A stretch of DNA of 64,000 nucleotides from a virus (lineage: Duplodnaviria; Heunggongvirae; Uroviricota; Caudoviricetes). Each line of letters starts with the position of its first letter. Within the stretch, counting starts at the first letter, position 1. Of the stretch, positions 18,624-56,670 are shown piece after piece. The DNA lies in the IMG/VR virus record IMGVR_UViG_3300041407_000207, positions 52,090-116,089 of that record. The stretch is one strand, 5' to 3'. The notes beneath the pieces are model-generated. The model saw only the letters and a list, made by a program, of their open reading frames with translations, made no database searches and was not told the origin of the DNA. The position numbers and the translations under genes were made by a program.

Positions 18624-18820
18624 TGGCCACTACATACACTACAGATACTGGCGTAGACCAGACTTCTAAACTACCTACGGGAGTTGCCTCATCCGGCAAT
18701 CTCTCGGGTACCTCTGACGCTTTGACTTGTTTTAGGGAACAGCAGTTCTCACAAAAACTACAGGTTTTCCTGGTCAGCTACGTCATGTCGGTTAGCTCTC
18801 CTTACGCGGTTTATAAGTAA
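18623..18820 (+). CDS. hypothetical small protein, 65 aa
   Basis: ATAATG-type coupling on both sides. Confidence 0.3.
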   Translation: MATTYTTDTGVDQTSKLPTGVASSGNLSGTSDALTCFREQQFSQKLQVFLVSYVMSVSSPYAVYK

Positions 18821-19515
18821 TGTCTGAAGTACGCAAGTTAGACCAAGAGTTGTTTCATACTTACCAGCAAACGAAATCCCCTCAGGATCTCCACAAGTTG
18901 GTGAACCAACTCATGCCATTGATTCATACCGAAGTCAAAAGAGCATCCGGTACTCTTCCAACTCAGGCACTTACCTCTGAAGCTAAGAAGTGGACCATCC
19001 ATGCTATAAATACGTACGATCCTTCAAAAGGTACTCAGCTTTCTACCCATGTGACCAACTACCTTCAAAAGGTACGTAGGATGAACTACAGGTATCAGAA
19101 CGCTGCACGTCTTTCGGAGAACAACCAACTCATTTTCCACAAATACAACAACGCCCAGCAAGGACTACAAGAACGACTTAGCCGAGAGCCCACTGACGAA
19201 GAACTGGCGGCGGAACTTGGTTGGTCTAAAAAGGGAGTGATAAAGTTCAAAGCAGGTATCTTCCAAGATATCGTGGAGAGCAGTAAAGAGAAAGCTAGCG
19301 AGTATTCTCGATTCGATACTGGCAAACCTCTATTTGAACACATGATGGAGCAGTTGACTCCCGAAGAACATTTGATCATGACTCATACTGGAGAGCTCTC
19401 TTCCGGAGAACTTGCAGATAAGCTCGGGGTTAACGTCAACCGTCTTAACTACTTGAAAGGTAAGATGGTTAAGAAATTAAAAGACATTCAAGATGAAATG
19501 TCGAGGTATCAATAA
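18820..19515 (+). CDS. sigma-70-family RNA polymerase sigma factor, 231 aa
   Basis: Region-2-like segment (WTIHAINTYDPSKGTQLSTHVTNYLQKVRR). C-terminal region-4 helix-turn-helix (LTPEEHLIMTHTGELSSGELADKLGVNVNRLNYLKGKMVKKLK). Confidence 0.6.
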   Translation: MSEVRKLDQELFHTYQQTKSPQDLHKLVNQLMPLIHTEVKRASGTLPTQALTSEAKKWTIHAINTYDPSKGTQLSTHVTNYLQKVRRMNYRYQNAARLSENNQLIFHKYNNAQQGLQERLSREPTDEELAAELGWSKKGVIKFKAGIFQDIVESSKEKASEYSRFDTGKPLFEHMMEQLTPEEHLIMTHTGELSSGELADKLGVNVNRLNYLKGKMVKKLKDIQDEMSRYQ

Positions 19516-25117: not shown

Positions 25118-25480
25118 TTGACTAACTCAGTCACCATCACCAAAAGATTGACCAATGACGGTTGGAGCATAACCGGTTCTCTAGGGGCTGGAGGTACCAT
25201 ACCGACGGATATCTTCGTCTATGAAAATTCCGGGACCACCACGTTGGGGAGTTGGCATTCGGTAGTAACCATCTCCGATATGACTAAGATACCTAGATGG
25301 ACCGGCGTAGCAATACCAATATCAAAGTCCCCTTGGGTAAGAGCTTCCACTATTAAAATACTGGTAGACACCACCCATAACGTGGACGAAGTAATCCTTA
25401 ATCTAAAAGGGTCTCTTCAAAAATTCGTAAAAGAATTCAACTCCGAAAAAGAGTCTACTAAAACTTATGTCCTCGACTGA
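25118..25480 (+). CDS. hypothetical protein, about 121 aa (TTG start)
   Basis: The table ORF 25028-25480 overlaps the previous gene. An in-frame TTG at 25118 with AAGGCGG upstream is the likely start. Confidence 0.35.
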   Translation: MTNSVTITKRLTNDGWSITGSLGAGGTIPTDIFVYENSGTTTLGSWHSVVTISDMTKIPRWTGVAIPISKSPWVRASTIKILVDTTHNVDEVILNLKGSLQKFVKEFNSEKESTKTYVLD

Positions 25481-26240
25481 TATCCAGCTGTACGGGAACA
25501 ATGCAAAGTCAACCCTGCTACTAGCAATTGGCCCTACGGATACCGTGTTTTCGGTCGTTTCTGGTCAAGGAAGTAGATTTCCGACAATAGCTAGCGCAAA
25601 AGAATTTTTCTTAATTACCTTTGAAAGCGCAGGCCTCATTGAGGTTTGTAAGGTAATTTCTAGAATCGGTGATAGTTTCACCGTAGAGAGATCTCAAGAA
25701 GGCACGATTGCAAACTCTTTCCCCATCGGTGCTCAGGTGCAGATGCGTGTTACGAAAGATACTTTGGCAAGAATGGCTAGACTTACAGACCGTCTCGGGG
25801 ATATTGATACCGTAGACAATCTGCCAGCAGTTTCTACGGCTACCGGTAACTCCTTTCTTTGCACATCAGCTGACGACGGCGGCAACCCTATCATGGCCAC
25901 TAAAGGGGTTGATAGATGGAGATTCCCAACACACAGCGTAGTTGCAGTGGCTACTGTTTCTTCAGGATCAACTACTACCAGCATTACTTCTGCAGGTTTT
26001 AACTCCTTACCAGTAGCTACCGGACGATACATTCTAAATTTTCTGACAGGCCCCTTCGCAGGTCAAAGTCGTCTGATAACTGCAATCGTTGGAACTACGC
26101 TAAGCTGGAGTCTACCAACTTCGTCTGCTCCGGCAAATGGTACTCAGGTAGAACTTTTAGTAAGTAACGCATATCAGATTTCACTCCTTTCTGCATTGAG
26201 TGATGAATCCATAATTAACGCAATCATTTTCGGATCTTAA
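25467..26240 (+). CDS. hypothetical structural protein, 257 aa
   Basis: Coupled ORF. Confidence 0.4.
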   Translation: MSSTDIQLYGNNAKSTLLLAIGPTDTVFSVVSGQGSRFPTIASAKEFFLITFESAGLIEVCKVISRIGDSFTVERSQEGTIANSFPIGAQVQMRVTKDTLARMARLTDRLGDIDTVDNLPAVSTATGNSFLCTSADDGGNPIMATKGVDRWRFPTHSVVAVATVSSGSTTTSITSAGFNSLPVATGRYILNFLTGPFAGQSRLITAIVGTTLSWSLPTSSAPANGTQVELLVSNAYQISLLSALSDESIINAIIFGS

Positions 26241-26243
26241 GAA

Positions 26244-26564
26244 ATGGCCGCATCACTCAAAAAAGCATCTGCTCTAATCGGTAGCACTCGAACTTTAGTA
26301 CTGACCGCCACCACCGGCATTCAGACCATCATCATTGGCGGGACCATTTCTAATATCGATGCTACCGAAGCCTATCACGGTGTTACGGTAGAAGTTCAAG
26401 CGTTGGACTCCAACTACACTGTACTTGTCAAGAACGCCCCTGTAAGCGTCGGTGGGTCTTTGATTCTTCCAAAATTCGTACTAGGCCCTGGGGAGAAAAT
26501 CTACATGACCGCTGACGCAGCTTCTTTTATTCAAGCCTACGTCTCTTACGTGGAGAAAACCTAA
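26244..26564 (+). CDS. hypothetical structural protein, 106 aa
   Basis: Coupled ORF. Confidence 0.4.
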   Translation: MAASLKKASALIGSTRTLVLTATTGIQTIIIGGTISNIDATEAYHGVTVEVQALDSNYTVLVKNAPVSVGGSLILPKFVLGPGEKIYMTADAASFIQAYVSYVEKT

Positions 26565-27587
26565 TTGAGTATCTTCGGTCAAAACCCGGCAGATATCACT
26601 GGTGCAGTCTTTAAGTCTAAAAACTTTTCAGACATTCCAGATAAAGCTGCTGCACGAAATAACCTAAATGTACCGAGTAAAGACGAAGTTCTTTACAACT
26701 CAGTACCCGTAGGTATGATTCTACCGTACTGGGGTTCTGTAGCTCCTGCAGGGTATCTGCCGTGTTCAGGGCAAACAGTTACTTCCGGAACATTTCCGGA
26801 ACTTGTTGCTTTTTTAGGTGGCGGAGCCTCGCAAGTAATTCCGGATCTTCGAGGAGAGTTTCTTCGAGGTTGGGATAACGGTCGTGGAACAGATTTGGGG
26901 CGAGCCATTAAGACTGCTCAAGATGCCCAGACAGAAGATCACAGCCACGTAACTCCCGTGAATGATACGGCGTCTCTCGTAAATATACAAATTGCTAGAG
27001 GTACTGGCAGTTGGCCGTATGGATCATCTTCAGGAATCCTAGTAGGGACTAATACTATTACTTCCGGTGTTTCCTACATCTCTTCTGGAGAAGACAGTTG
27101 GCTTAATACCGGTCCAAACATTAAATTGACAGCCGGAGAGACTCGTCCTCGCAACGTTTCTGTCCTGTATTGCATCAAAGCGTACAGTTCAGTAGCCAAC
27201 TACACTTCTAGCGTTAATATAGCTGGATTGATAAGTGATTATTCCACTCTGAACTCTGCGGCGGTTAAATACGCTGATTTCTTAGGTAGTAATCAGCAAG
27301 TACTTTCTTCAGGATACCAAAAATTGCCAGGAGGCATAATACTTCAGTGGATTCCAGTAGCTATGCCCACTACTGCTTCTGCCAGTACTGCATTTACCTA
27401 TCCAATTGCATTCCCAACAGCGGTTGCTACACTTGCACTGGCCTCTAACCACACCATGAGTACTGCGGGGATTGTTGGTCTCACTATAAATAACCGGAAT
27501 AACTCCGGAGCTAGTTTGATGTGTACTGGATTTACTGGGACAATAGGTGCAGTAGTAGCTACTACCGTAATTGCCATTGGTTATTAA
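26565..27587 (+). CDS. tail fibre protein paralog 1 with phage tail-collar motif, 340 aa
   Basis: TTG start after GGAGAAAA. N-terminus MSIFGQNP..DIPDKAAARNNL. Collar motif LPDLRGEFLRGWDNGRGTDLGRAIKTAQDA. Confidence 0.7.
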   Translation: MSIFGQNPADITGAVFKSKNFSDIPDKAAARNNLNVPSKDEVLYNSVPVGMILPYWGSVAPAGYLPCSGQTVTSGTFPELVAFLGGGASQVIPDLRGEFLRGWDNGRGTDLGRAIKTAQDAQTEDHSHVTPVNDTASLVNIQIARGTGSWPYGSSSGILVGTNTITSGVSYISSGEDSWLNTGPNIKLTAGETRPRNVSVLYCIKAYSSVANYTSSVNIAGLISDYSTLNSAAVKYADFLGSNQQVLSSGYQKLPGGIILQWIPVAMPTTASASTAFTYPIAFPTAVATLALASNHTMSTAGIVGLTINNRNNSGASLMCTGFTGTIGAVVATTVIAIGY

Positions 27588-27602
27588 TTTAAGGAACATA
27601 AG

Positions 27603-28169
27603 ATGACTCTTTTTTACAGCCCGTCTAACGCTGGTTTTTACGATGATGAAATTCACACCACTATTCCTTCTGACGGAGTGGAAATCACTAAATCAGAACA
27701 CACGGCTCTGCTCACCGCCCAGTCGGAAGGTCGAGTTATCTGTGTAGGAGAAGATGGTAAACCCACCACCAAACTTCCAGATAAGCCAGATCTCCCAACC
27801 TACAAACGACAGGCTAAAGATAAAATCGACGGTATCCGGAAAGATACTGAAGAAAAAGGTCTTACCTACGTTTTCCCAGACGAAGTAACCGACGTAATTC
27901 AGCTTAGAAATAACCGAGATCTACTAAACGTCTCATCTATGGTTACTTCAGCTCAGTTGCTCAAAGCTTCTGGATTTACTGGCACAATGAAATTTCAGGC
28001 GGAGAGTAACACTACGCATGAAATGACTGCTGATGAACTAATTACCATGGGTCTAGAAGTTGGGTTTTATATCCAGTCTCTTTACACTAAAGCTTGGCCA
28101 ATCAAGGCCGCTATCGACGCTGCTGCAGATTATGATGAAGTAGATGCCTTAGCGGTATGGCCAGAATAA
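27603..28169 (+). CDS. hypothetical protein, 188 aa (possible fibre assembly/chaperone)
   Basis: Sits between fibre paralogs. Followed by a terminator. Confidence 0.35.
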   Translation: MTLFYSPSNAGFYDDEIHTTIPSDGVEITKSEHTALLTAQSEGRVICVGEDGKPTTKLPDKPDLPTYKRQAKDKIDGIRKDTEEKGLTYVFPDEVTDVIQLRNNRDLLNVSSMVTSAQLLKASGFTGTMKFQAESNTTHEMTADELITMGLEVGFYIQSLYTKAWPIKAAIDAAADYDEVDALAVWPE

Positions 28170-28195
28170 GTCAAGTTAAAATTCAGTAAGACCAA

Positions 28196-28227
28196 TAGGG
28201 GACCCCCAACAAGGTCCCCTTAGTTTT
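28196..28227 (+). terminator. rho-independent terminator
   Basis: GGGGACCCCC-aacaa-GGTCCCCT-tagtttttt. Confidence 0.6.
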
Positions 28228-28242
28228 TTCTACGGAGTCACA

Positions 28243-29202
28243 ATGTCTCAATTCGGTCAACCACCTCTCGCCGCTTTTCTCCCGCTAAGGGCTGGTCAAA
28301 ACCTGTCCGACTTGCCTGATAAACCTGCGGCTCTTGCAAATCTCGGGACGCTGAGTACTTCAGATATCATGATGAACTCCGTCCCAATAGGCACCATCAT
28401 CCCATTCTGGGGTAACACTGCTCCAGTAGGATATTTGCCATGTAACGGACAAACTGTCAACTCTGGTACTTTTCCTGACCTTGTTACTTTTCTAGGTGGT
28501 GGCAGTTCACAGGCGCTTCCGGATCTTCGTGGAGAATTCCTCCGTGGATGGGATAATGGTCGTGGGACGGATTTGGGCAGAGCTATTAAAACTGCTCAAG
28601 CAGATGCCCTTAAAAACCACTTCCACTATTTGCCAACCGAAAGCGGTGCGGGCTCGACTTTTGATCCAGCAGGTATAGTTCCGACTATAGTCCTTAAAGA
28701 TGCCCCCGCAGATTGGGTAACAAGAGTAGCAAGTGACAACAATATTTTCGGAACCCCAGCAGGTACGGTAAGAACGTATAGCCAAAGTGCTGACGTAGAG
28801 ACCCGACCTCGCAACATCTCAGTTCTCTACTGCATGAAAGCCTACGGAGCTTTGGTAAACACCTCTACTGCCAATATAGGCAACGTTCTTACCGAACTCA
28901 GTCAATGTACTAAGTTGACTCAATTTGAAGTTTCTCTTTCAGGAAACGGATACCAAAAATTTCCAAACGGTTTGATTATGCAGTGGGGTACGACTTATAT
29001 AAATGCTACAACTGGCTCCGTAACTTTCCCTATAGTTTTCCCAAGTGCATGTACATCAGTAATGACTAATAAACAAACTACTTCGGATGCCCGTAGAACA
29101 AGTACTAGCGCAGCCACCACTGCCGGATTTTCAATATACGGTTGGTCGGGTGCTTCTGCAGCGAACATAGATACTGCCTACTGGATGGCCATAGGATACT
29201 AA
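28243..29202 (+). CDS. tail fibre protein paralog 2 with tail-collar motif, 319 aa
   Basis: N-terminus MSQFGQPP...DLPDKPAALANLG. LPDLRGEFLRGWDNGRGTDLGRAIKTAQADA identical to paralog 1. Confidence 0.7.
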   Translation: MSQFGQPPLAAFLPLRAGQNLSDLPDKPAALANLGTLSTSDIMMNSVPIGTIIPFWGNTAPVGYLPCNGQTVNSGTFPDLVTFLGGGSSQALPDLRGEFLRGWDNGRGTDLGRAIKTAQADALKNHFHYLPTESGAGSTFDPAGIVPTIVLKDAPADWVTRVASDNNIFGTPAGTVRTYSQSADVETRPRNISVLYCMKAYGALVNTSTANIGNVLTELSQCTKLTQFEVSLSGNGYQKFPNGLIMQWGTTYINATTGSVTFPIVFPSACTSVMTNKQTTSDARRTSTSAATTAGFSIYGWSGASAANIDTAYWMAIGY

Positions 29203-29211
29203 GGAAAAATC

Positions 29212-30189
29212 ATGTCTGATTACTTCGGCCAGTCTCCGGACGGCTATCAAAAACCACTCTACGCTGCTAGTAATTTCAGTGATGTAGTAGATAAGCCTGC
29301 AGCCCTTGTTAACCTCGGTGCAGCTTCGGCGGACGACGTTCTAAAAGCAGCAAACCCAATCGGCACCATCATTGCCTTCTACGGGAGTGTTGCCCCGTAC
29401 GGCTACCTCCCTTGCTCGGGTCAAACCGTCTCTAGTTCTACTTTCCCAAGCTTAGTTACTTTCTTGGGCGGAACTACTTCGGCAACTCTTCCGGATCTTC
29501 GGGGGGAATTCCTCCGTGGATGGGATAATGGTAGAGGGATCGATACGGGTCGCACAATTCGAAGTAACCAGAAAGGATCTCTCCTCTATGGAAATGACGA
29601 TAACGGAGCAGAGGTACATGGACTAAATAGCATCAGTGCTAATAGGGCTGGACTTGGATGGGACGTACCTACTATAACGGAATATTCTGGGGTAGGAACC
29701 TATACCAATAGCGGAGTAATAGTACCTGGAAGTGTTTTATTTTCGGCTGCACATTACGGTACTTCCCGCCCACGAAACGTTTCGGTCCTCTACTGCATAA
29801 AAGCCTACGATTCTCCAGTTAACGCAGGTATTTTGAACGTTGCTACTCTGGCTAGTGAAATGGCTCTTAAAACTGCTCTTGCGGATTTCACGGGTACTAA
29901 TCAGACAAAAGCCAATATTGGTTACCAAAAACTTCCAGGAGGAATGATTATTCAATGGGGTGAATCCGTTACTACGAGCGGGACTGGAAATTTGGTTTTC
30001 CCAATAGCTTTCCCGACTGCAGCTGCGCAATTTATCGCAACTGCAACGGCATCTTCACCGGCTAACTATATTGTTACCTGCGGTTCACTAAGCCCTTCAA
30101 ATATCTCGGTATTTACCACAGGAGCAGTAGCTGGATCAACCCCAGTAGCTATCGCGATAGGCTATCGTTGGGTAGTTCTAGGCTATTAA
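29212..30189 (+). CDS. tail fibre protein paralog 3 with tail-collar motif, 325 aa
   Basis: N-terminus MSDYFGQSP..VVDKPAALVNLG. LPDLRGEFLRGWDNGRGIDTGRTIRSNQ. Confidence 0.7.
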   Translation: MSDYFGQSPDGYQKPLYAASNFSDVVDKPAALVNLGAASADDVLKAANPIGTIIAFYGSVAPYGYLPCSGQTVSSSTFPSLVTFLGGTTSATLPDLRGEFLRGWDNGRGIDTGRTIRSNQKGSLLYGNDDNGAEVHGLNSISANRAGLGWDVPTITEYSGVGTYTNSGVIVPGSVLFSAAHYGTSRPRNVSVLYCIKAYDSPVNAGILNVATLASEMALKTALADFTGTNQTKANIGYQKLPGGMIIQWGESVTTSGTGNLVFPIAFPTAAAQFIATATASSPANYIVTCGSLSPSNISVFTTGAVAGSTPVAIAIGYRWVVLGY

Positions 30190-30210: not shown

Positions 30211-30618
30211 TTGACGACTTCATCCCCTCAACTCGAAAATAGAGTAATAGAAATTCTCGATGCAATTCGAGAGGTGTTGAACCGTCTAGCTACTCTAGAA
30301 GAAAAAACTGTTTGGCACAACAATTACATGAACCAGTTGAGTAATGGTCAAAAGGAAATGGCGGATCGTATTTCAGATCTTGCTCAGGACCGTGGCCGTA
30401 TTGCTCTTCTCGAGAGAGAAGTTCAGTACTTGACTGGCGACGTTAACAAACAAGCCAAACAGCTAGAGACTTTGACAGGTCTAGTTCAAGAATTGACTAC
30501 AAACGATAAGATGCAGGGTAAAACTACGGGCTTCATTGAGAAGTTTGCATCGTCATTCATACTTGCATTGGGTTCTGCCGGTGCAGGTGCCGGAGCTATT
30601 AAGTTCTTCGGCGGCTAA
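30211..30618 (+). CDS. coiled-coil protein with a Gly/Ala-rich hydrophobic C-terminus, 135 aa
   Basis: TTG start. First gene of the lysis-region cluster. Confidence 0.4.
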   Translation: MTTSSPQLENRVIEILDAIREVLNRLATLEEKTVWHNNYMNQLSNGQKEMADRISDLAQDRGRIALLEREVQYLTGDVNKQAKQLETLTGLVQELTTNDKMQGKTTGFIEKFASSFILALGSAGAGAGAIKFFGG

Positions 30619-30633
30619 TTTAGGAGTTTCAAA

Positions 30634-30885
30634 ATGGATCAAATCGACGTTGTAGCAGTAGGCTTTCTGGTCTCTCTGGCCAAAGCAACTATTTCTGTGC
30701 TCATGTTCTCCACCATCACCTTTCTTCTATTGAGAGTGGCTAACAAGCTTTCCGGAATACGTTTCGAACATGCATACCTGGTTGTCGGGACCGATCCCAA
30801 AGCCCTATCCATGTACCTGAGCGTTCGTTATGCAGTTCTAGGCCTGGGAAACGCGTACATCATTGCTTCAAACTTCCTTTACTGA
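30634..30885 (+). CDS. putative holin, 83 aa, 2-3 transmembrane segments
   Basis: Hydrophobic helices (VVAVGFLVSLAKATISVLMFSTITFLLL; LSVRYAVLGLGNAYIIA). Immediately upstream of the endolysin. Confidence 0.45.
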   Translation: MDQIDVVAVGFLVSLAKATISVLMFSTITFLLLRVANKLSGIRFEHAYLVVGTDPKALSMYLSVRYAVLGLGNAYIIASNFLY

Positions 30886-30895
30886 GGTCGTAGAC

Positions 30896-31489
30896 ATGAA
30901 AGTCTTAGCCGTAATTCTAGCATTCCTTTTTACGGCTACTTCGGTAGAGGCGGCCCCGCCTCCGCTAAAGAGCAAGTACGATGGGTTCTTCATAAAGTAC
31001 ACCCAGATGTACCTACCGGGTGTCGACTACGATTTGATAAAGGCTCAGTGCTGGCAGGAGTCTAGATTCAAAGAGCAGGCGGTTTCCCCGGTAGGGGCCG
31101 CTGGCGTCTGTCAGTTCATGCCCGGTACTTGGAAAGACACTAGAAAAGCACTGAAGATTTCCGAGAGTATCTCGGTGTTCCATCCTGAGTACAACATCCA
31201 AGCTGCGGCCTACTACATGGGTACGCAGTACAAGATGTGGAAGTCTCCTAGACCGATGCAAGACAGACATAACCTTGCTACCGCGAGCTACAACGCGGGG
31301 GCAGGTCATTTGATCACTGCACAAAAACTCTGTGGGGGCCCGGCTCTCTACAAAGAAATTATCCCATGCCTGCCTAGGGTGACAGGTAAGAACAGCAAAG
31401 AAACAATGGATTACGTAGTTCACATCCGTAATTTCTACGCCGATCTAAAAAAAGCCAAGAACGAGGTAGTTCCAAATGACGGTCTCTAA
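30896..31489 (+). CDS. lytic transglycosylase (SLT domain) endolysin with N-terminal signal peptide/SAR
   Basis: CWQESRFKEQAVSPVGAAGVCQFMPGTW (catalytic E-S, GLMQ-like). ASYNAGAG. Likely start MKVLAVILAFLF at 30896 (GAGG ribosome-binding site); the table ORF begins at 30863. Confidence 0.75.
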   Translation: MKVLAVILAFLFTATSVEAAPPPLKSKYDGFFIKYTQMYLPGVDYDLIKAQCWQESRFKEQAVSPVGAAGVCQFMPGTWKDTRKALKISESISVFHPEYNIQAAAYYMGTQYKMWKSPRPMQDRHNLATASYNAGAGHLITAQKLCGGPALYKEIIPCLPRVTGKNSKETMDYVVHIRNFYADLKKAKNEVVPNDGL

Positions 31490-31739
31490 ACTTGAATACG
31501 CAAAAGCAAAAGTGTCTTTGTATTTTTGGAACTTCTTGGTTGCAGTAGATCAGCTTGCCAATACTGCCCTCGGAGGTGATCCTGATGAAACCCTATCGTC
31601 TCGAATGGGCAAGAACGTACGTGCTGGCAGATGCAAACTGTGCAAAGTGATTTGCTATCTACTAAACAAAATTGACCCTAACCACTGTGAGAAATCTATC
31701 GAGCCTGATGAAGGTTCTCGGCAGGTGTCCGGTGATTGA
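31476..31739 (+). CDS. hypothetical small Cys-containing protein, 87 aa
   Basis: ORF within the lysis cassette. CKLCKVIC motif. Confidence 0.3.
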   Translation: MTVSKLEYAKAKVSLYFWNFLVAVDQLANTALGGDPDETLSSRMGKNVRAGRCKLCKVICYLLNKIDPNHCEKSIEPDEGSRQVSGD

Positions 31740-32145
31740 CTGGGTAAACAAAGCTATCATGGGCCTACTTTTGTCGGCCCTTGTTTCCTGTGCAGGTTAC
31801 ATCGTGTATCTGCGAGTAGAGGTATCTAATCTTACTCAAGATGTTTCCGACAGAGATGACGTAATCGATGCTAACAAACTTGTAATCGACAGGTACGTTT
31901 CCAACGCTGCGGAAAACGATGCGATCATCTCAGACTTCCGAAAGTCTCTAGAGGAGGTCAAGAGACTGCAACTACTAAAAGCAGAGCAGATTTCTAAAGC
32001 CATTGCAGACGCAGAGAAAGTGGTGAAAGAACGTGAATCTTATTCAGCTTCTCTACTGGCCACTATTCCAAAATCGTCTAACATGTGTAAAGAAGCCGAC
32101 GATATGATTAATTCTTATTTGGCCAAAGAGCGGGGTGAAAAATGA
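31672..32145 (+). CDS. putative i-spanin (N-terminal transmembrane segment plus coiled coil)
   Basis: GLLLSALVSCAGYIVYL transmembrane segment then helical region. True start possibly the ATG at 31759. Overlaps the o-spanin start. Confidence 0.45.
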   Translation: MTLTTVRNLSSLMKVLGRCPVIDWVNKAIMGLLLSALVSCAGYIVYLRVEVSNLTQDVSDRDDVIDANKLVIDRYVSNAAENDAIISDFRKSLEEVKRLQLLKAEQISKAIADAEKVVKERESYSASLLATIPKSSNMCKEADDMINSYLAKERGEK

Positions 32146-32429
32146 AAGTATTACTTTTTCTATTCACCCTGTTTCTTCAAGGCTGTTTCGGCTTGAACTC
32201 TAAACCACAACCTTTAGTAGAAACTGTCTATATTCGTGTTCCGGTCCCTGGACCACCAGTTCCTTGCAAGATTGATAGGGTAGAACCTCCGGTTGATCTT
32301 TTTATGAACTTGAAGAAAACAGACGATATTCACTACAAGGTAAAAACTCTGCTTGCAGGTAGGGAGTTAGATAAAGCTTATCGTGTCAAGTTGGAGACGG
32401 CGATCAACTCATGCAACCAAAAAGACTAA
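32142..32429 (+). CDS. putative o-spanin, outer-membrane lipoprotein, 95 aa
   Basis: Lipobox LFLQGC. Pro-rich. Start overlaps the i-spanin end. Confidence 0.6.
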   Translation: MKVLLFLFTLFLQGCFGLNSKPQPLVETVYIRVPVPGPPVPCKIDRVEPPVDLFMNLKKTDDIHYKVKTLLAGRELDKAYRVKLETAINSCNQKD

Positions 32430-33244
32430 TAGGGTATGACACATTCCATCTGCCACTCGATGAAGGAATGGACCATACGTTCAAATTCATCTACGTAGAT
32501 GAAAGCACACTACTCCCTATAGATTTGACGGGGTATCGGGCTGATCTTTATGTCCGCATGGTTCCCGGAAGTACTCAGGTACTAAAAGGCCTTTCCACTT
32601 CGTACTCATACGCAGACGGTTCTATATCCCTCGGGGCTGACGGGGAGATAACCTTAAGAATTACAGGCGGATTTACTACGAATTTGAATTGGTCAAGCGG
32701 TATCTACGATATGGTTTTGACCGACCCTGACCAGAATAGATCCAAGATTTTGAAAGGGTTTGTGAACATCTACAATACCAATACCTTTCCTTTGGAATAT
32801 TCGCCGATACAGCCAGCAGACGCATTGGTCCTTACCTCAGGCAAGACTCTTCTTCCTAACGGCATTGACCTTTACGGCTACATGAACCCTATCAAGCTAG
32901 GTATCGGGGGAGGTCTCCTTCTTACCGGTAGCCTAAGACCTGCGATCTATATGGGTCATGAAGTAGTTGAACTGAGTTATACAGGCGGAAGCCTACGAGT
33001 TACGTTCTCCGGTAACATGCCGGGTTCAAACGTTTTCAGCATGAAGATTGGAACCCAGGTGTTCCCGGTTTCAACTTCTGAAGGCAGAGTATTTAATGAG
33101 AGTGGGGCCGCAGGTCTTGGCCTTACTTACTGGGAATGGAGGGGATTGCTTAATCCGTTTGGTGATGTAGAAGGTTGGGCAGTAGCAGTAACGTTTACCC
33201 CAGAAGAAGAACCTGAAATGGTTATAGACGGGGGTACTTTCTAA
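32411..33244 (+). CDS. hypothetical structural protein, 277 aa
   Basis: ORF. Confidence 0.4.
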   Translation: MQPKRLIGYDTFHLPLDEGMDHTFKFIYVDESTLLPIDLTGYRADLYVRMVPGSTQVLKGLSTSYSYADGSISLGADGEITLRITGGFTTNLNWSSGIYDMVLTDPDQNRSKILKGFVNIYNTNTFPLEYSPIQPADALVLTSGKTLLPNGIDLYGYMNPIKLGIGGGLLLTGSLRPAIYMGHEVVELSYTGGSLRVTFSGNMPGSNVFSMKIGTQVFPVSTSEGRVFNESGAAGLGLTYWEWRGLLNPFGDVEGWAVAVTFTPEEEPEMVIDGGTF

Positions 33245-33495
33245 TGGCAGCCAGGTCTGGTGACGTATTGATAAAAAGGGGGCTAAGGTCCAACCTCCCA
33301 AATCGAGCAGAGTTAGCACAGCCATTGTTCGCCACAGATACTGGTGAATTGTTTATCGGACTAGGAAATGATAGGCCACCTTTAAAAATCGGAAAGTCCG
33401 ATTATGAAATTTGGCTGTCTCAAGGTAATACAGGCACCGTAGAAGATTTCTACAACGCCACCACTAGACAGACCTGGCAGCAGGCGGAATGGTAA
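33244..33495 (+). CDS. hypothetical protein, 83 aa
   Basis: TAATG coupling. Confidence 0.35.
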   Translation: MAARSGDVLIKRGLRSNLPNRAELAQPLFATDTGELFIGLGNDRPPLKIGKSDYEIWLSQGNTGTVEDFYNATTRQTWQQAEW

Positions 33496-33498
33496 ACA

Positions 33499-34074
33499 AT
33501 GGCTACTCTAAATTTCTACAAAGTCACATCTCTCCCAGGAACTCTGGTAGCAGACTCTCTTTATTTCGTAAGTAACGGTTCAGTAGCAGAATCGTACATT
33601 ACGGATTCTTCTGGTGTATCGAAATCCCTAGGTAACACTTCGATGATTACGTCGATTGTTACCTCTCAGATGGCCTCTACTCTGGCTTCCTATAACGCCA
33701 TGGAGATCGTGGCCACCATAGCGGCTCGTAATACGCTCGCTGCGACTCTTAATCGCAACCTTCTTGTCCTAGTGTCAGATGCGACTGGAGACGCCACCGT
33801 AGCCTCCGGAGCAGCTCTATACGCCTTCAACAACACTGGCGATACTTGGACTAAAGTAACTGAGTATGAATCTTTAGATGTCACCCTGACTTGGGCTTCC
33901 CTTCAGAACAAACCGACGTCTTCCGTAGCTCAGATTGATACCGCAGTAAGTCAGTCCCACGCCCATTCCAATAAGATTTATTTGGACAAGATAGGGGAGA
34001 CAGGTGGTGTTATGACTTACGATGGTTCTGCAGTTGGCGGAGGCACCACTAACTGGACAACTTTGAATTGGTAA
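33499..34074 (+). CDS. fibre-like protein, 191 aa (paralog of the next gene)
   Basis: N-terminus FYKVTSLPGTLVADSLYFVSNG parallels the next protein's HKVVSTLPTPLVASSIYYVRVG. Confidence 0.45.
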   Translation: MATLNFYKVTSLPGTLVADSLYFVSNGSVAESYITDSSGVSKSLGNTSMITSIVTSQMASTLASYNAMEIVATIAARNTLAATLNRNLLVLVSDATGDATVASGAALYAFNNTGDTWTKVTEYESLDVTLTWASLQNKPTSSVAQIDTAVSQSHAHSNKIYLDKIGETGGVMTYDGSAVGGGTTNWTTLNW

Positions 34075-34077
34075 TTT

Positions 34078-34599
34078 ATGGCCGCTGTACTCCATCATAA
34101 AGTCGTATCCACCCTGCCTACTCCCTTAGTGGCTAGTTCTATTTACTACGTCCGCGTAGGGAGTGGGTTCGATGTTTATGTCACCAATGAAACTGGTACT
34201 GTAGTTTCTTATCCGATAAACAATGCTAAAGCTGGAGCTAACTCGGACATCACTTCTATACGTGCGAGTCAGTACGTAGACAAGGTCTATGTGAATGCTA
34301 CGACCACAGGCACGGTTAACTTGGATTTATCTGCCTACACCGTATTTGACTTGACCCTAACGGGCAACACTACTCTTACGTTTTCGAATTTTCCGACGTT
34401 ATCTGCAGAGGGTCTGACTATAGTGATAAGACTTACTTGCGGGGCTACACCGTATTCTATAGCGTGGTTTTCCGGTCTAACGTGGTTGACGACTGGCGGA
34501 GCTGTGCCGACCGCGCCGCTGGCGAACAAGATAGCGGAGTTCGTAGTCACCTCACAAAATGGGACTGCTTTTTTGGGACGGAAGGGAGCTTCCAATTGA
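34078..34599 (+). CDS. fibre-like protein paralog, 173 aa
   Basis: See the previous gene. Confidence 0.45.
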   Translation: MAAVLHHKVVSTLPTPLVASSIYYVRVGSGFDVYVTNETGTVVSYPINNAKAGANSDITSIRASQYVDKVYVNATTTGTVNLDLSAYTVFDLTLTGNTTLTFSNFPTLSAEGLTIVIRLTCGATPYSIAWFSGLTWLTTGGAVPTAPLANKIAEFVVTSQNGTAFLGRKGASN

Positions 34600-35243
34600 A
34601 TTTAGGCAGAGCCTTGTTGGCTTCTTGGCCATCATCAATACCCGTAGACACCAGGCCTATTGGTCAATCTTACGGAGGGGGATATTACGCTGGAAGAATT
34701 CAGATAGGCTCAAATGTCTACGAGCTCGTAGTAGCCCCTAAAGAAGTTGGGGAAGCGACTCTAGCGAATCAGGCCTGGAACTTCTCCTTTACCGGTAACA
34801 CTTCTCTGAACGACGGTAAGCTGACTCAATCGAATATGGTAGCGTATGGGATAAGTTCATTCCCTGCTCAGCAAGCAGTTATTTCTAGCGTAAACGCTGG
34901 GGGATTCACTGATTGGTATATCGGGTCTAAAGAAGAGATGGAAGTAATATACAGAGCACTTAAGCCGTCTACTACGGTCAACGTAACTACCTCGGGAGTG
35001 AACTCTAGCTCCATCCCTACCACCTCAAACTATACAACTACAAATCCACCACAGACATCTGTTGCTATTTTTAGAACGGGTGGAGCTCAGCAATTCGCGG
35101 CTAGCCCGTACGCATCTGTTACCCAAGGATCTGGCGGACCACTGTACATGCACACCAAATCTTTTTCAGATGGATCGGACGCGTCTATAGTAAACGATTC
35201 TTACACATTAGTACGGGCAATACGCCGTATCCTAGTTGCATAA
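34596..35243 (+). CDS. hypothetical structural protein (TTG start), about 215 aa
   Basis: The table ORF 34437-35243 overlaps upstream. GAAGGGAG ribosome-binding site 7 nt before the TTG at 34596. Confidence 0.4.
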   Translation: MNLGRALLASWPSSIPVDTRPIGQSYGGGYYAGRIQIGSNVYELVVAPKEVGEATLANQAWNFSFTGNTSLNDGKLTQSNMVAYGISSFPAQQAVISSVNAGGFTDWYIGSKEEMEVIYRALKPSTTVNVTTSGVNSSSIPTTSNYTTTNPPQTSVAIFRTGGAQQFAASPYASVTQGSGGPLYMHTKSFSDGSDASIVNDSYTLVRAIRRILVA

Positions 35244-35255
35244 AGGCTAAAAAAA

Positions 35256-35558
35256 ATGGCTCAAAAACAAGTAGCAAGAGTTGGAGATATCGGTATCGGT
35301 GTTTGCCCAAACCATGGGGCACCTTTGATTTACACTACCACCTTCACTTCTGGGGAAGCCACGTTTTTGGCAGACGGGAAATTAGTTTGTACTGTGGGGT
35401 CGTTCGGTAATTCAACTTGTGGCCATCAGACAACAGCTCTGACCGGAAGCGCTATTTCTAAAGCAAATGGGAAGTTGCTTCACAGAGTAGGCGATACCGG
35501 TCAGAACTATGGTCAGTACACAGTTACGTCAGGAAGTCCGACGGTTTCTTCAGAGTAG
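35256..35558 (+). CDS. hypothetical protein, 100 aa; last gene of the late operon
   Basis: Followed by the hairpin at 35612-35635. Confidence 0.4.
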   Translation: MAQKQVARVGDIGIGVCPNHGAPLIYTTTFTSGEATFLADGKLVCTVGSFGNSTCGHQTTALTGSAISKANGKLLHRVGDTGQNYGQYTVTSGSPTVSSE

Positions 35559-46614: not shown

Positions 46615-47196
46615 CTACTGAACTTTCCAGTTCTTAAGATTTTCGTAACTTAGGGGGTGAAGTTCCGATTTATAAAACTCCGCAAGTTCCTCCAAGTACG
46701 TTGATTTCATTTTTAAATACGATGCCCCGGCCTCGTCCTCATTTACGAAATACTGACAACGCCTCTTACCGTTACCTACTCTAATTTTTGCTATGAACCT
46801 CTTATCCCGGTTACACCAGTGAACCCCAACATATCTGGAATTTTTGCAAACGTCAGGGACTATTATTGAGCTGTTCACTATTGCCGGGACAAGATCGCAG
46901 GTTTCCGGCCCGTAAATTTTATTACCTGGATACTTTAAATCTTTATCAATTTGATATCCCTTTTTCCCATAGTTTTTGTGCTCGGTATACCACTTTGCAA
47001 AAACTTGGAAGTGATGCCAAGGCTCTACGACAGAACACCCAACATAAGTTGGTAGCTCTCGTTGATAGTTTTCGTCATAGCATCTGGATATCATATCAAA
47101 CCAAGTATTGTACTCCTTGGTATGCTTACCGTTTTCACAACTGGCGTAGAGGCCCCTCCCCAGGACCCCCACACCTTTAACAAGTTTTTCTCTCAC
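46615..47196 (-). CDS. HNH/AP2-domain homing-endonuclease-like protein, 193 aa
   Basis: C-terminal AP2-type DNA-binding segment YVGVHWCNRDKRFIAKIRVGNGKRRCQYFVNEDEAGASY. N-terminal NTWFDMISRCYDEN...YVGCSV box typical of HNH-AP2 endonucleases. Confidence 0.4.
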   Translation of the reverse strand: MREKLVKGVGVLGRGLYASCENGKHTKEYNTWFDMISRCYDENYQRELPTYVGCSVVEPWHHFQVFAKWYTEHKNYGKKGYQIDKDLKYPGNKIYGPETCDLVPAIVNSSIIVPDVCKNSRYVGVHWCNRDKRFIAKIRVGNGKRRCQYFVNEDEAGASYLKMKSTYLEELAEFYKSELHPLSYENLKNWKVQ

Positions 47197-48056
47197 TTTT
47201 TACCTACGTCAAGGAATGGTACCGCGCTACTAGGAATCATAGTGGTTGGCAGTACTCCATTCCATTTTTCTACGCGAGTAAGGTCTACCAGATTTTGGTT
47301 TTGAGCCAGAGCTTTGGCCTTGACTTCGATAGCATACGCGTCTGCTTCACCGCGCATGCGAGTAGCCGTAGCCTCCGCAGTTGCTTTTGCCACCGTTGCT
47401 TCCGCTTCCGCAGTAGCCCGGTTTACGTTCTGGAGGTTGGTCTCGCCTTGACGCAAGGTTTCGTTTTTCTGGGTAAGAATCTCGACATTCTTCTCCATCA
47501 TTTTGCGGATGTTGCCTTCATACGAATCATCGAAGTCAATATTCTCAACCTGTACAGAGTCAACGACCAGAGGTCCTACAAGAGACTCCCGAACAGATTT
47601 CTCGATGCTCGCACCGAATGCCACCCGCTTAACTACAGAATCCGCTGCGGTGTATTGACCGAAAACGTTTTCAACTTGGGTAGGAACCTGGCGTTCGATC
47701 AGACGACTTTGCAAGCCTTCCAAAGAAGAAAACTTGGAATAGACGTTGGCCACCTCGGCTTCCGGTACATGATACGAGACCGAGACTCGCAAAGTAGCCG
47801 TTTGCTGGTCTTTGGAATACGCAGTCACGCCCGTGAAAGCAATGCTTTGGTTTTGCGTAGAAATAAAGACTACGCTCTGAACGAAAGGCATCTTCACATG
47901 CAGGCCCGGCTCGGCGATGCCGGTAACTTTGCCGTTGGTAAGAATCACTCCACGCTCACGGTCATTGACCGTGTACATGCCGCTGAACACGGCAGAGGCG
48001 ATGATGACGGCGAGAATCGCCAGGAGAATGTTGCGGGTAGACATATGGTTAATCAC
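47193..48056 (-). CDS. SPFH/band-7 (HflC/HflK/prohibitin-like) membrane protein, 287 aa
   Basis: N-terminal transmembrane segment. RGVILTNGKVTGIAEPGLHVKMPFVQSVVFISTQ matches the band-7 core. C-terminal coiled coil. Confidence 0.65.
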   Translation of the reverse strand: MINHMSTRNILLAILAVIIASAVFSGMYTVNDRERGVILTNGKVTGIAEPGLHVKMPFVQSVVFISTQNQSIAFTGVTAYSKDQQTATLRVSVSYHVPEAEVANVYSKFSSLEGLQSRLIERQVPTQVENVFGQYTAADSVVKRVAFGASIEKSVRESLVGPLVVDSVQVENIDFDDSYEGNIRKMMEKNVEILTQKNETLRQGETNLQNVNRATAEAEATVAKATAEATATRMRGEADAYAIEVKAKALAQNQNLVDLTRVEKWNGVLPTTMIPSSAVPFLDVGKK

Positions 48057-55819: not shown

Positions 55820-55830
55820 TGGGCTACTCC

Positions 55831-56670
55831 TTAGTAGTTTTCACGGGTTACGTTGAGGATACGGAGGTTACCTTCGCCTTGCAGCTCACGATGGTAACTG
55901 TTGGTGGAGATTACTTCGTCGTAGATACCGGTAACGACGGCAGTCCCCTTGGAGAACAGACCGTGGGTCACTGCCAAGCTTACCGAAGCAGCGCCCTGTT
56001 CTTTCAGGGAGTGATACAGCGGCACGAATGTACCGCAGCCATCACCGATATCATCCAGGACCAGCAGAGTACGACCTTCGACAGTATCGTTGACCCGGGT
56101 TCCGGAGATAGAACCAGTTGCGAGGTCACGAACCTTGGTGCAGTGAATTACGCCAGCCGCACCTACTTTTCTGGCGAACGATTCCGCCTTCTTAGCAGCA
56201 CCACCATCTGGAGCTGCGATATAGACTTCACGCCACGAGGTATAGATATCACGGAAGATATCGAACTGGGTCACAACTTCCAGGCGGTTGAACAGAGCCG
56301 ATGTAACCTCGCTGTGAGGGTCCAGGATCTTCACGCTGGCAAAGTTACAGGCGTTGATATGCTTAGCCACCACGGCGATGCTGAGAGGCTCACCTGGGTT
56401 GCAAACACGGTCTTGTCGGGCGTATGGCATGTACGGGATGAAGGCAGAGACGTCTGCACGAGGATAGACTCGACGAACAGCGTCCTCGATAAACAGCAGG
56501 TTCAAGAGATCGCCCTGAGTAGTGAGTCGAGCTACAATTTCGACCGACTCTACTTTCTCTGGATAGAGACCTCCGTCCTGGATTTGAGGAACTACTTCAC
56601 CACCTGGAAAGTGAATGTAGGTGATTTCTTCGGTGCAGTTGCCTTTGCGCAGATAAATAGTGCCTTTCAT
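55831..56670 (-). CDS. ribose-phosphate pyrophosphokinase-family enzyme (Prs, or the ADPR-pyrophosphorylating Adps variant), 279 aa
   Basis: IPYMPYARQDR (Prs IPYFGYARQDR). PRPP-binding loop LVLDDIGDGCGT (Prs LVDDMIDTGGT). Confidence 0.75.
   Translation of the reverse strand: MKGTIYLRKGNCTEEITYIHFPGGEVVPQIQDGGLYPEKVESVEIVARLTTQGDLLNLLFIEDAVRRVYPRADVSAFIPYMPYARQDRVCNPGEPLSIAVVAKHINACNFASVKILDPHSEVTSALFNRLEVVTQFDIFRDIYTSWREVYIAAPDGGAAKKAESFARKVGAAGVIHCTKVRDLATGSISGTRVNDTVEGRTLLVLDDIGDGCGTFVPLYHSLKEQGAASVSLAVTHGLFSKGTAVVTGIYDEVISTNSYHRELQGEGNLRILNVTRENY

What the first reader, a model, noticed from the sequence alone, without database searches (positions are those of the whole stretch)
26565..30189. 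Three tandem tail-fibre paralogs with identical tail-collar cores and divergent C-termini, plus a second paralog pair at 33499-34599
Genes at 26565, 28243 and 29212 all open with MS(x)FGQ..P followed by DKPAAL.NLG. They share LPDLRGEFLRGWDNGRG.D.GR almost verbatim, and then diverge in the distal halves, which are 319-340 aa long. A 188-aa gene and a terminator are interposed after the first copy.

Genes at 33499 and 34078 form a second paralog pair with the N-terminal pattern YKV.SLP..LVA.S.Y.V..G. Together with the 739-aa fibre-like gene at 51444, the phage appears to carry a multivalent receptor-binding repertoire produced by local duplication.
Basis: seen in the sequence. Interest (0 to 1): 0.5.

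Follow-up and report, generated by a model that had tools for sequence, protein, structure and literature searches.

The report
Three-slot short tail-fibre array
An uncultured large phage carries three old, conserved copies of a short tail-fibre gene whose fixed scaffolds hold swappable receptor-binding cassettes, which is a tidy but fairly ordinary example of how phages vary host recognition.

Summary
The three genes are real: F1 26565-27587, F2 28243-29202 and F3 29212-30189. They are clear paralogs (41-43% identity, E about 1e-70). Each has a phage tail-collar domain plus a Gp53-like lectin-fold C-terminal domain. A DUF4376 chaperone-like gene and a strong terminator follow F1.

The collar cores are similar (63-80%), not identical. 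The figure of 319-340 aa is the length of the whole proteins. Divergence sits in two modules per gene: an insert inside the collar domain and the loops of the C-terminal domain.

The array is not a recent local duplication. Ten of ten distinct related metagenomic phages, with backbones down to about 60% protein identity, carry F1-chaperone-F2-F3 in the same order. N-termini are specific to each position (slot): 84% identity within a slot versus 42% between slots. Scaffold dN/dS is 0.02-0.14.

In near-identical genomes (backbone 96-100%), the fibres drop to 59-78% identity because cassettes have been replaced. Insert cassettes also move between slots.

Best reading: three distinct homotrimeric short fibres, each with its own docking end, diversified by homologous cassette exchange. 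This is a new member of a known kind, of modest interest.

The second "pair" shares only about 60 N-terminal residues. The 739-aa gene is not shown to be a fibre.

The parts
25467..26240 (+). p257: conserved fibre-like structural protein upstream of the array. Candidate anchor or docking partner (inferred).
   Evidence: The N-terminal 100 aa or so match PHROG tail-fibre families 8469 and 30299 and PDB 8jov 'putative tail fiber protein', E 2.8e-10. It is 98% identical in close relatives, while the fibres are 59-78%.
26244..26564 (+). p106: small conserved protein. Its stop codon directly abuts the TTG start of F1.
   Evidence: ORF. The junction reads GGAGAAAACC TAA TTG. The adjacency is conserved in all 10 relatives. 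Function unknown.
26565..27587 (+). F1, slot-1 short tail fibre (340 aa, TTG start). Modules:
- N-terminal slot-specific segment 26565-26705
- collar core 26706-26921
- variable insert 26922-27137, starting with an HSH motif
- conserved strand 27138-27185
- slot-specific linker 27186-27311
- Gp53-like C-terminal domain 27312-27584
   Evidence: Pfam Collar E 3e-11 and Gp53-like_C E 1.6e-10. Module coordinates. The nucleotide-identity profile against near-identical genomes falls to 8-47% (mostly 30-47%) in the insert and 27-65% in the C-terminal domain, with an island of 92-93% at 27147-27266.
27603..28169 (+). Tail-fibre assembly chaperone-like gene (188 aa).
   Evidence: Pfam DUF4376 E 3.1e-15. 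PHROG 188 'tail fiber assembly protein' matches residues 1-77, E 1.3e-13. It lies in the same position in all relatives. It is 94-96% identical in L009 and L011 although F1 is 59%.
28197..28229 (+). Intrinsic-terminator-like hairpin and T-run between the chaperone gene and F2.
   Evidence: Found by the scan; sequence. The intergenic region is 92-100% identical in four relatives. Function as a terminator is inferred, not shown.
28243..29202 (+). F2, slot-2 short tail fibre (319 aa). Modules:
- N-terminal segment 28243-28383
- collar core 28384-28599
- variable insert 28600-28797, containing an HFH motif
- conserved strand 28798-28845
- linker 28846-28947
- Gp53-like C-terminal domain 28948-29199
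   Evidence: Pfam Collar E 3.6e-14 and Gp53-like_C E 7.9e-19. AF2 model. Foldseek matches the C-terminal domain to AP22 gp53 (4mtm) and the R-pyocin fibre foot (6cxb, 6ct8, 6cl6). PDB sequence search matches the phiTE short tail fibre 9cuy, E 2.5e-18.
29212..30189 (+). F3, slot-3 short tail fibre (325 aa). Modules:
- N-terminal segment 29212-29355
- collar core 29356-29571
- variable insert 29572-29760, with no HxH motif
- conserved strand 29761-29808
- linker 29809-29919
- Gp53-like C-terminal domain 29920-30186
   Evidence: Pfam Collar E 4.7e-14 and Gp53-like_C E 1.6e-14. A 9-nt spacer, TAA GGAAAAATC ATG, places a Shine-Dalgarno motif over the F2 stop codon. Coordinates come and direct-repeat family D4.
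26839..26909 (+). Conserved box upstream of the insert (encodes PDLRGEFLRGWDNGRG.D.GR). Copies also lie at 28517-28587 and 29489-29559. Inferred crossover substrate.
   Evidence: Direct-repeat family D2: 71 nt, 73-83% identity.
27134..27185 (+). Conserved box downstream of the insert (encodes ETRPRNVSVLYCIKAY). Copies also lie at 28794-28845 and 29757-29808. Inferred crossover substrate.
   Evidence: Direct-repeat family D3: 52 nt, 73-79% identity. These boxes stay 92-98% identical between close genomes, as islands between the variable blocks.
33244..35243 (+). Accessory fibre-like module: p83b, p191, p173 and p215. p191 and p173 share only an N-terminal segment of about 60 aa. Not part of the three-slot array.
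   Evidence: Similarity. The module is absent from relatives L006, L008 and L013, and p215 is 47-56% identical or absent in others. The p83b similarity is unconvincing.

Best explanation
F1, F2 and F3 are three different short tail fibres (receptor-binding proteins) of a large, uncultured myovirus-like phage.

**Architecture.** Each protein is built in the same way:
- a 47-aa N-terminal end specific to its position in the array (its slot);
- a tail-collar domain of the T4 gp12 / gp37 / phiTE-STF type, interrupted by a variable insert of about 63-72 aa;
- a short linker;
- a lectin-fold 'foot' like that of AP22 gp53 and the R-type pyocin fibres.

**Assembly (inferred).** Each copy most likely forms its own homotrimer. 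Each uses its slot-specific N-terminus to dock at its own site on the baseplate or on the conserved upstream proteins. Virions would then carry all three fibres together. The DUF4376 protein encoded after F1 is the folding chaperone. It does not co-vary with the F1 tip, so it probably recognises the conserved framework of the foot domain and may serve all three fibres.

**Evolution (shown).** The triplication is ancient and fixed in the clade. Host-recognition diversity comes from replacing two cassettes per gene, the collar insert and the foot-domain loops.

**Exchange mechanism (inferred).** Replacement occurs by homologous recombination with crossovers in conserved sequence. The insert is flanked on both sides by boxes shared by all three genes, so it moves freely between slots. 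The foot cassette has a shared box only on its 5' side and mostly stays in its slot.
For: **Identity of the proteins**
- Pfam Collar and Gp53-like_C score above their gathering cut-offs in all three. PHROG tail-collar-fibre families match at E down to 1e-44.
- PDB sequence matches include the phiTE short tail fibre, T4 gp37 and gp12, AP22 gp53 and the R1 pyocin fibre.
- Foldseek matches the confident C-terminal part of the AF2 model to 4mtm, 6cxb, 6ct8 and 6cl6 at E 1e-7 to 2e-6.
- In phiTE, the short tail fibre is a trimer that docks on a wedge protein through its N-terminus (PMC11972413).
- The pyocin foot is the lectin-fold receptor-binding domain (PMC6363177, abstract seen).

**Chaperone**
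- It matches DUF4376 and PHROG 188.
- It is 94-96% conserved where F1 is 59%.

**Ancient, fixed triplet**
- The same gene order occurs in 10 of 10 distinct relatives.
- N-termini are 84% identical within a slot and 42% between slots.
- Among 72 classified proteins, 0 of 1,721 cross-slot N-terminal pairs reach 60% identity, against 763 of 835 same-slot pairs.
- Slot identity follows position even in L012 and L013, whose backbones are 59-75% identical to the window.
- Scaffold dN/dS is 0.02-0.14.

**Cassette replacement**
- L009 and L011 are 96-100% identical to the window in backbone proteins, but 59-78% in F1-F3.
- DNA identity collapses in two blocks per gene, with conserved islands of 92-98% between them.

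**Cross-slot movement**
- 8 of 12 multi-member insert clusters mix slots, against 2 of 17 foot-domain clusters.
- The window F1 insert is 64-84% identical at the DNA level to the L008 F2 insert, and 24-47% to the L008 F1 insert.
- The shared boxes are direct-repeat families D2, D3 and D4.

**Homotrimers rather than a heterotrimer**
- The HxH motif is present or absent independently in each paralog.
- Insert lengths differ widely within one genome. Some F3 copies carry an extra domain of about 110 aa.
Against: - No virion data exist for this uncultured phage. Presence of all three proteins in particles, their stoichiometry and their docking sites are all inferred.
- The AF2 model is a monomer with low confidence in the insert (pLDDT about 46-64). 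The position and exposure of the insert are therefore not established.
[quoted passage not shown] A Gp53-like fold alone does not prove receptor binding.
- The cross-slot cassette pairs are only about 55-80% identical. The exchanges are old, or drawn from an unsampled pool, and no crossover has been caught in the act.
- The protein sample came from a search seeded with F2, which could bias which cassettes were seen.
- A terminator directly before F2 with no recognisable sigma-70 promoter leaves the expression of F2 and F3 unexplained.
Confidence: 0.65

Rival explanations
1. Alternative occupancy. The three homotrimers compete for the same baseplate site, so each virion carries a stochastic mixture, or only the most expressed fibre. 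This would be bet-hedging rather than a fixed trivalent set.
For: - All three N-termini share a common pattern (MSxFGQxP ... N[FL]SD..DK.AA..NL).
- The terminator between the chaperone gene and F2 could set different expression levels.
Against: - The N-termini are strongly slot-specific and conserved as such across the clade: 84% within a slot, 42% between slots, and no cross-slot pair at 60% or above.
- This pattern is what distinct docking partners would produce. A shared site would be expected to homogenise the N-termini.
Confidence: 0.15
2. Heterotrimer. One chain each of F1, F2 and F3 assembles into a single fibre type. The slot-specific N-termini and linkers would set the register.
For: - Exactly three paralogs are retained in every relative.
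- They have near-identical collar motifs and conserved slot-specific linkers.
- F2 and F3 are translationally coupled.
Against: - The HxH motif, which in T4 gp12 and gp37 needs all three chains for metal coordination (established knowledge), is present in some paralogs and absent in others within the same genome.
- Insert lengths differ by up to about 30 aa within one genome.
- F3 of L004, L010 and L013 carries an extra domain of about 110 aa before the foot. This would put the three foot chains out of register.
- All solved homologs are homotrimers.
Confidence: 0.05
3. Partial redundancy. Only one copy, F1, which has the adjacent chaperone, is the working receptor-binding protein. F2 and F3 are a silent or weakly expressed reservoir of cassettes used for recombination into F1.
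For: - The chaperone gene follows F1 only, and a terminator precedes F2 and F3.
- Insert cassettes are shared between slots.
Against: - F2 and F3 are intact in all relatives, have good Shine-Dalgarno sequences and show scaffold dN/dS of 0.02-0.13.
- Their own slot-specific N-termini are conserved. A silent cassette store would not need this.
Confidence: 0.08

Closest known systems
T4 gp12 short tail fibre, the T4 gp37 tip and the phiTE short tail fibre (PDB 1ocy, 2xgf, 9cuy): collar-domain fibres
   Same: - The tail-collar domain (PF07484) is shared.
- The chain leaves the collar after the conserved ..PDLRG.F.RG.. motif, often through an HxH motif, and returns in a closing strand (RP.N..V.Y.IK).
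- All are trimeric baseplate fibres.
- The phiTE STF aligns over residues 40-203 of F2 at E 2.5e-18.
   Different: - These proteins are much shorter (319-340 aa) and have only about 47 aa ahead of the collar.
- The excursion from the collar is a hypervariable cassette of about 63-72 aa, not a long needle and head.
- F3 lacks HxH.
- A second, lectin-fold domain follows the collar.
AP22 gp53 and the R-type pyocin fibre 'foot' (PDB 4mtm, 6cxb, 6ct8, 6cl6), with their Tfa-type chaperones
   Same: - The C-terminal domain matches PF21882 and these structures by fold, at E 1e-7 to 2e-6.
- The N-terminal parts are conserved and the C-terminal regions variable, as described for gp53 homologs.
- A chaperone-like gene lies directly downstream of the fibre gene (F1).
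   Different: - Here the foot is attached to a collar domain rather than to a long shaft with knobs.
- One chaperone gene accompanies three fibre genes, and it does not co-vary with the foot.
- Sugar or LPS binding was not tested.
Multi-RBP ('branched') phages such as CBA120 TSP1-4, Klebsiella phiK64-1 and SP6/K1-5 (from my own knowledge, not tested here)
   Same: Several receptor-binding proteins are encoded side by side. Each has a conserved N-terminal attachment part and exchangeable distal parts.
   Different: - Those systems use large tailspikes or depolymerases with dedicated adaptor or branching domains.
- Here the three proteins are small paralogs of one another.
- No branching domain was identified.
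T-even gp37/gp38 adhesin mosaics, in which recombination between conserved motifs swaps hypervariable segments (Tetart et al. 1998; from my own knowledge)
   Same: Hypervariable specificity segments are bracketed by short conserved motifs that can act as crossover points. This gives mosaic genes in otherwise similar genomes.
   Different: - The exchange here also occurs between three paralogous loci (slots) of the same array.
- It affects two independent cassettes per gene.

Membership tests
Phage tail-collar domain fibres (PF07484; T4 gp12/gp37 type) | Significant match to the Collar profile above the curated cut-off | tested here: met
   The three proteins score 43.5, 52.9 and 52.5 bits against a cut-off of 24. 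PDB sequence hits include 9cuy, 2xgf, 1ocy and 1pdi.
Phage tail-collar domain fibres (PF07484; T4 gp12/gp37 type) | HxH metal-binding motif just after the collar core, as in gp12 and gp37 | tested here: inconclusive
   The motif is present in F1 (HSH) and F2 (HFH) and absent in F3. Across relatives it is present or absent independently in each paralog. It is not required by the Pfam family.
Phage tail-collar domain fibres (PF07484; T4 gp12/gp37 type) | Homotrimeric assembly on the baseplate | not testable with these tools
   Only a monomer model could be made. The inference rests on homologs.
Gp53-like C-terminal domain (PF21882) / R-pyocin fibre foot lectin fold | Profile match above the cut-off, and fold match to the solved structures | tested here: met
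   The three proteins score 41.8, 68.4 and 54.6 bits against a cut-off of 24.9. Foldseek hits 4mtm at E 1.1e-7, 6cxb at 7.6e-7, and 6ct8 and 6cl6 at 1-2e-6. Model pLDDT is about 72-97 (mostly 87 or above) over residues 231-319.
Gp53-like C-terminal domain (PF21882) / R-pyocin fibre foot lectin fold | Binding of a surface saccharide or LPS | not testable with these tools
   No host and no assay are available. The role of gp53 itself is unresolved.
Tail-fibre assembly chaperones (Tfa; DUF4376 / PHROG 188) | Profile match, and position immediately downstream of a fibre gene | tested here: met
   DUF4376 scores 57 bits against a cut-off of 25. PHROG 188 matches at E 1.3e-13. The gene follows F1 in all relatives. 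Chaperone activity was not tested.
Multi-RBP / branched receptor-binding systems | Several RBP genes, each with its own conserved attachment module | tested here: met
   Slot-specific N-termini are 84% identical within a slot and 42% between slots. 0 of 1,721 cross-slot pairs reach 60%.
Multi-RBP / branched receptor-binding systems | Simultaneous presence of the RBPs on one virion through an adaptor or branching domain | not testable with these tools
   No virion data exist. p257 has a fibre-type N-terminus, but no adaptor domain was identified.
Dedicated diversification systems (DGR, or invertible Gin/Cin-type fibre segments) | Reverse transcriptase with template/variable repeats, or an invertase with inverted repeats flanking the fibre segments | tested here: not met
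   - No reverse transcriptase or recombinase domain was found in the large ORFs of the window.
- All fibre genes lie on one strand, and no meaningful inverted repeats flank them.
- The only trace is a sub-threshold Mtd_N hit on p83b (E 0.0086).
- Small ORFs were not all scanned.

The most novel reading that the evidence does not exclude
Every baseplate wedge of these phages carries all three fibres at once. Each fibre has two independent receptor-contact modules, a lateral collar insert and a distal lectin foot. The clade would then run a six-cassette combinatorial adhesin platform. The collar-insert cassettes would be freely interchangeable among the three slots, because all three genes share the same flanking recombination boxes. 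This would make a natural plug-and-play scaffold for retargeting host range.
Probability: 0.2. Interest if true: 0.5.

Novelty: new member of a known kind. Interest (0 to 1): 0.3.

Why it matters
**Significance.** The finding documents, in an uncultured clade of phages of about 165-170 kb, a cleanly delimited receptor-binding scaffold with exact module boundaries. Natural cassette swaps have been observed both between genomes and between paralogous slots. That could guide engineering of receptor-binding proteins and help interpret host-range variation in metagenomic phages.

**Limits.** It does not overturn current ideas. Multiple fibres, conserved anchors and mosaic tips are the expected pattern for phage host recognition.

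Tried and rejected
**Searches that found nothing useful**
- Megablast of the locus against GenBank phages found nothing.
- A scan of IMG/VR with the 744-aa baseplate protein found no relative. Relatives had to be reached through exact-protein look-ups.
- The only cultured relatives are distant: Salmonella phage Arash and the Vibrio phages D69, D181 and D148. Arash has no fibre array at this position.
- A literature search for 8JOV returned only noise.
- The paper on tandem fibre paralogs in vibrio phages added nothing specific.

**Analyses that were uninformative or negative**
- dN/dS on the variable cassettes is uninformative because synonymous sites are saturated.
- The idea that F2 and F3 could be joined by stop-codon read-through (in frame, 9-nt gap) was dropped. 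The gap is 10 nt in L012.
- A dedicated diversifier, either a DGR or an invertase, was looked for and not found.
- My guess that the extra gene after the long F3 variants of L010 and L013 is an HNH endonuclease has no Pfam support.
- The 83-aa gene at 33244 does not convincingly share the N-terminal module of p191 and p173.

**Not attempted**
- A heterotrimer test by multimer prediction could not be run with the tools. It was assessed only indirectly.

Full report
**What is there**

The window holds three same-strand ORFs:
- F1, 26565-27587 (340 aa, TTG start);
- F2, 28243-29202 (319 aa);
- F3, 29212-30189 (325 aa).

A 188-aa ORF lies at 27603-28169. A strong hairpin with a T-run lies at 28197-28220 and beyond, 22 nt before the F2 start.

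The three proteins are clear paralogs. BLASTP gives 41-43% identity and E 1e-70 to 1e-73. A three-way alignment gives 42-47% identity to F1.

Each matches Pfam Collar (PF07484) and Gp53-like_C (PF21882) above the curated cut-offs. The 188-aa protein matches DUF4376, and over its N-terminus it matches PHROG 188 'tail fiber assembly protein'.

All three starts have Shine-Dalgarno motifs. The F1 TTG directly follows the stop codon of the upstream 106-aa gene. F3 starts 9 nt after the F2 stop.

The shared opening MS(x)FGQ..P and the motif [LI]PDLRGEFLRGWDNGRG.D.GR are real. Four details need correcting:
- 'Identical cores' is an overstatement. The collar core is 63-80% identical between copies of one genome. 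At the DNA level the best shared blocks are 71-83% identical.
- 'DKPAAL.NLG' does not fit F1.
- 319-340 aa is the whole-protein length.
- The divergence is not simply 'distal halves'.

**Genomic context**

The window is a structural and lysis region of an uncultured phage. It contains a large terminase, a sigma factor, baseplate-wedge-like proteins, the fibre array, an SLT-containing lysis cluster and a PAAR-like protein.

GenBank phages hold no close relative. The nearest cultured relatives are Salmonella phage Arash and three Vibrio phages. They match at 35% identity over half of the 744-aa baseplate protein. Arash is an orphan myovirus (PMC10585845), and it has no fibre array at this position.

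The same phage occurs in two metagenome assemblies. Relatives have contigs of up to 165-169 kb.

**The array is ancient and fixed, not a local expansion**

Ten distinct related contigs all carry p257-p106-F1-DUF4376-F2-F3 followed by the lysis genes, in that order. The contigs are L004, L005/L006, L007, L008, L009, L010, L011, L012 and L013, plus L003.

The copies group by position, not by genome. By segment, identity is as follows:

| Segment | Same slot, other genome | Other slot |
|---|---|---|
| N-terminal ~50 aa | 84% | 42-43% |
| Collar core | 84% | 71% |
| Closing strand plus linker | 75% | 42% |

On 72 slot-classified proteins from the homolog search, no cross-slot N-terminal pair (0 of 1,721) reaches 60% identity. 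Among same-slot pairs, 763 of 835 do.

Position still predicts N-terminal type in L012 and L013, whose backbone proteins are only 59-75% identical to the window.

Scaffold segments of all three slots have dN/dS of 0.02-0.14. All copies are intact everywhere.

**Where the diversity lies**

Each gene has two hypervariable modules:
- an insert between GR.I.T.Q and ETRPRN, inside the collar domain;
- the loops of the C-terminal domain.

These modules carry no slot signal. Insert identity is 26% within a slot and 22-23% between slots. C-terminal identity is 40% and 37%. The conservation profile of 91 homologs falls to 0.14-0.36 over F2 residues 121-180, and over most of residues 251-310.

The comparison with L009 and L011 is decisive. 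Their backbone proteins are 96-100% identical to the window, and the chaperone is 94-96% identical. F1 is 59%, F2 65-70% and F3 63-78%.

The nucleotide-identity profile shows two collapsed blocks per gene, mostly at about 20-60%. Islands of 92-98% separate them, and the flanks are near-identical. In L011 the F3 insert is retained (72-85%) while the F3 C-terminal block is replaced, so the two modules change independently.

**Exchange between slots**

Some cassettes are shared between different slots of different genomes:
- the window F1 insert and the L008 F2 insert are 78% identical at the protein level;
- the L006 F2 and L004 F3 inserts are 68% identical;
- the L004 F1 and L006 F2 C-terminal domains are 68% identical.

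At the DNA level, the window F1 insert is 64-84% identical to L008 F2. It is 24-47% identical to L008 F1.

In the larger sample, 8 of 12 multi-member insert clusters mix slots, but only 2 of 17 C-terminal clusters do.

The insert is bracketed on both sides by boxes shared by all three genes (D2 of 71 nt and D3 of 52 nt). The C-terminal cassette has a shared box (D4, 42 nt) only on its 5' side. I infer that ordinary homologous recombination at these boxes explains the asymmetry. This step is inferred, not shown.

I found no reverse transcriptase, no invertase and no flanking inverted repeats.

**What the proteins are like**

The best solved sequence homolog of the collar half, including the closing strand, is the phiTE short tail fibre (9cuy, E 2.5e-18), followed by T4 gp37 and gp12. 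In phiTE that fibre is a trimer whose N-terminus docks on a wedge protein (PMC11972413).

The AF2 monomer model of F2 has mean pLDDT 71. It is confident for the collar core and for residues 231-319, and poor for the insert.

By fold, its C-terminal domain matches AP22 gp53 (4mtm) and the R1/R2 pyocin fibre foot. The pyocin foot is the lectin-fold receptor-binding domain of those fibres (PMC6363177 abstract). gp53 is a trimeric fibre whose role in infection is unproven (bioRxiv 10.1101/518761).

**Homotrimers or a heterotrimer**

Three observations argue that each paralog trimerises with itself:
- The HxH motif after the collar core is present in F1 and F2 but not in F3. Across relatives it comes and goes independently in each paralog.
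- Insert lengths differ considerably within one genome.
- Some F3 orthologs carry an extra domain of about 110 aa before the foot.

This evidence is indirect. A multimer prediction could not be run.

**Most likely mechanism**

My best reading is three distinct homotrimeric short fibres. Each would be anchored through its own N-terminal segment to a separate site on the baseplate or on the conserved upstream proteins. One candidate partner is p257, whose N-terminus is of tail-fibre type. The fibres would be folded with the help of the DUF4376 chaperone and retargeted by cassette replacement.

- Shown: homology, domain architecture, conserved triplet, purifying selection, cassette mosaicism.
- Inferred: co-presence in virions, distinct docking sites, receptor contact by both modules, one chaperone serving all three, and crossover at the boxes.

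**Secondary claims**

p191 (33499) and p173 (34078) share only an N-terminal segment: 41% identity over 63 aa, E 3e-7. PHROG hits agree. Together with p83b and p215 they form an accessory module. It is missing from L006, L008 and L013 and is variable elsewhere.

The 739-aa gene at 51444 has weak PHROG tail-family hits over residues 233-479 only. It has no Pfam domain above threshold and no PDB match, and it lies outside the structural block. Calling it a fibre is not justified yet.

**Verdict**

I rate it a new member of a known kind, in an undescribed phage clade, with interest about 0.3.

Noticed in passing
window 39140-40645 (-): The phage encodes a Ro60 ortholog: a TROVE domain plus the Ro60 vWA domain, E 8e-44. 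It is conserved in the relatives, next to an RNase H gene. The Rfam gathering search of the window found no Y RNA or other RNA family apart from tRNAs.
   Followed up: partly
window 26562-26567, and all relatives: The TTG start of F1 directly abuts the TAA stop of the 106-aa gene, with zero spacing and a GGAG motif 9 nt upstream. This is conserved in all 10 relatives and suggests termination-reinitiation coupling between p106 and F1.
   Followed up: partly
window 28170-28242: The intergenic region holding the terminator-like hairpin is 92-100% identical in relatives, more conserved than the flanking coding sequence. No sigma-70-like promoter for F2 and F3 was detected. The phage encodes its own sigma factor at 18820-19515.
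   Followed up: no
L010 12229-12717; L013 13891-14388: Relatives with a long F3 (432-437 aa, with an extra domain of about 110 aa) have an additional Cys/His-rich gene of 162-165 aa right after F3. By eye it looked HNH-like, but it has no Pfam hit. L004 has a long F3 without this gene.
   Followed up: partly
window 30211-32429: A lysis-type cluster sits between the fibre array and a second fibre-like module. It comprises a coiled-coil protein with a hydrophobic tail, an 83-aa membrane protein, an SLT transglycosylase (about 30863-31489), and 145-aa and 95-aa proteins with hydrophobic N-termini that resemble spanins.
   Followed up: no
window 34596-35558: p215 is hypervariable among relatives (47-56% identical, or absent) and has a sub-threshold Lcl_C hit. 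A PAAR-like 100-aa protein follows it (35256-35558; the PAAR motif hit, E 6e-5, is below the gathering score).
   Followed up: partly
window 30139-30186: F3 ends with ..AIAIGY RWVVLGY. The usual terminal motif (W.AIGY) appears twice in tandem, as if the last strand were duplicated.
   Followed up: no
window 54071-58228 and 1840-3096: Auxiliary genes are present: an NAPRTase-family protein, a PRPP-synthetase-like protein, PhoH, a ThiF-family protein, an SPFH/Band 7 protein (47193-48056), an alpha/beta hydrolase (45211-46047) and an SNF2-type helicase (58310-59782).
   Followed up: no
window 44673-44746 and 62096-63236 (-): ARAGORN finds five tRNA genes: Gly-tcc, Arg-tct, Ser-gct, Ser-tga and Met-cat. 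Rfam reports three of them at the gathering threshold.
   Followed up: no
protein P0024: A 57%-identical homolog of F2 is filed in a eukaryotic transcriptome set (EukProt 'Spiro4'). It is presumably phage or bacterial contamination of that dataset.
   Followed up: no
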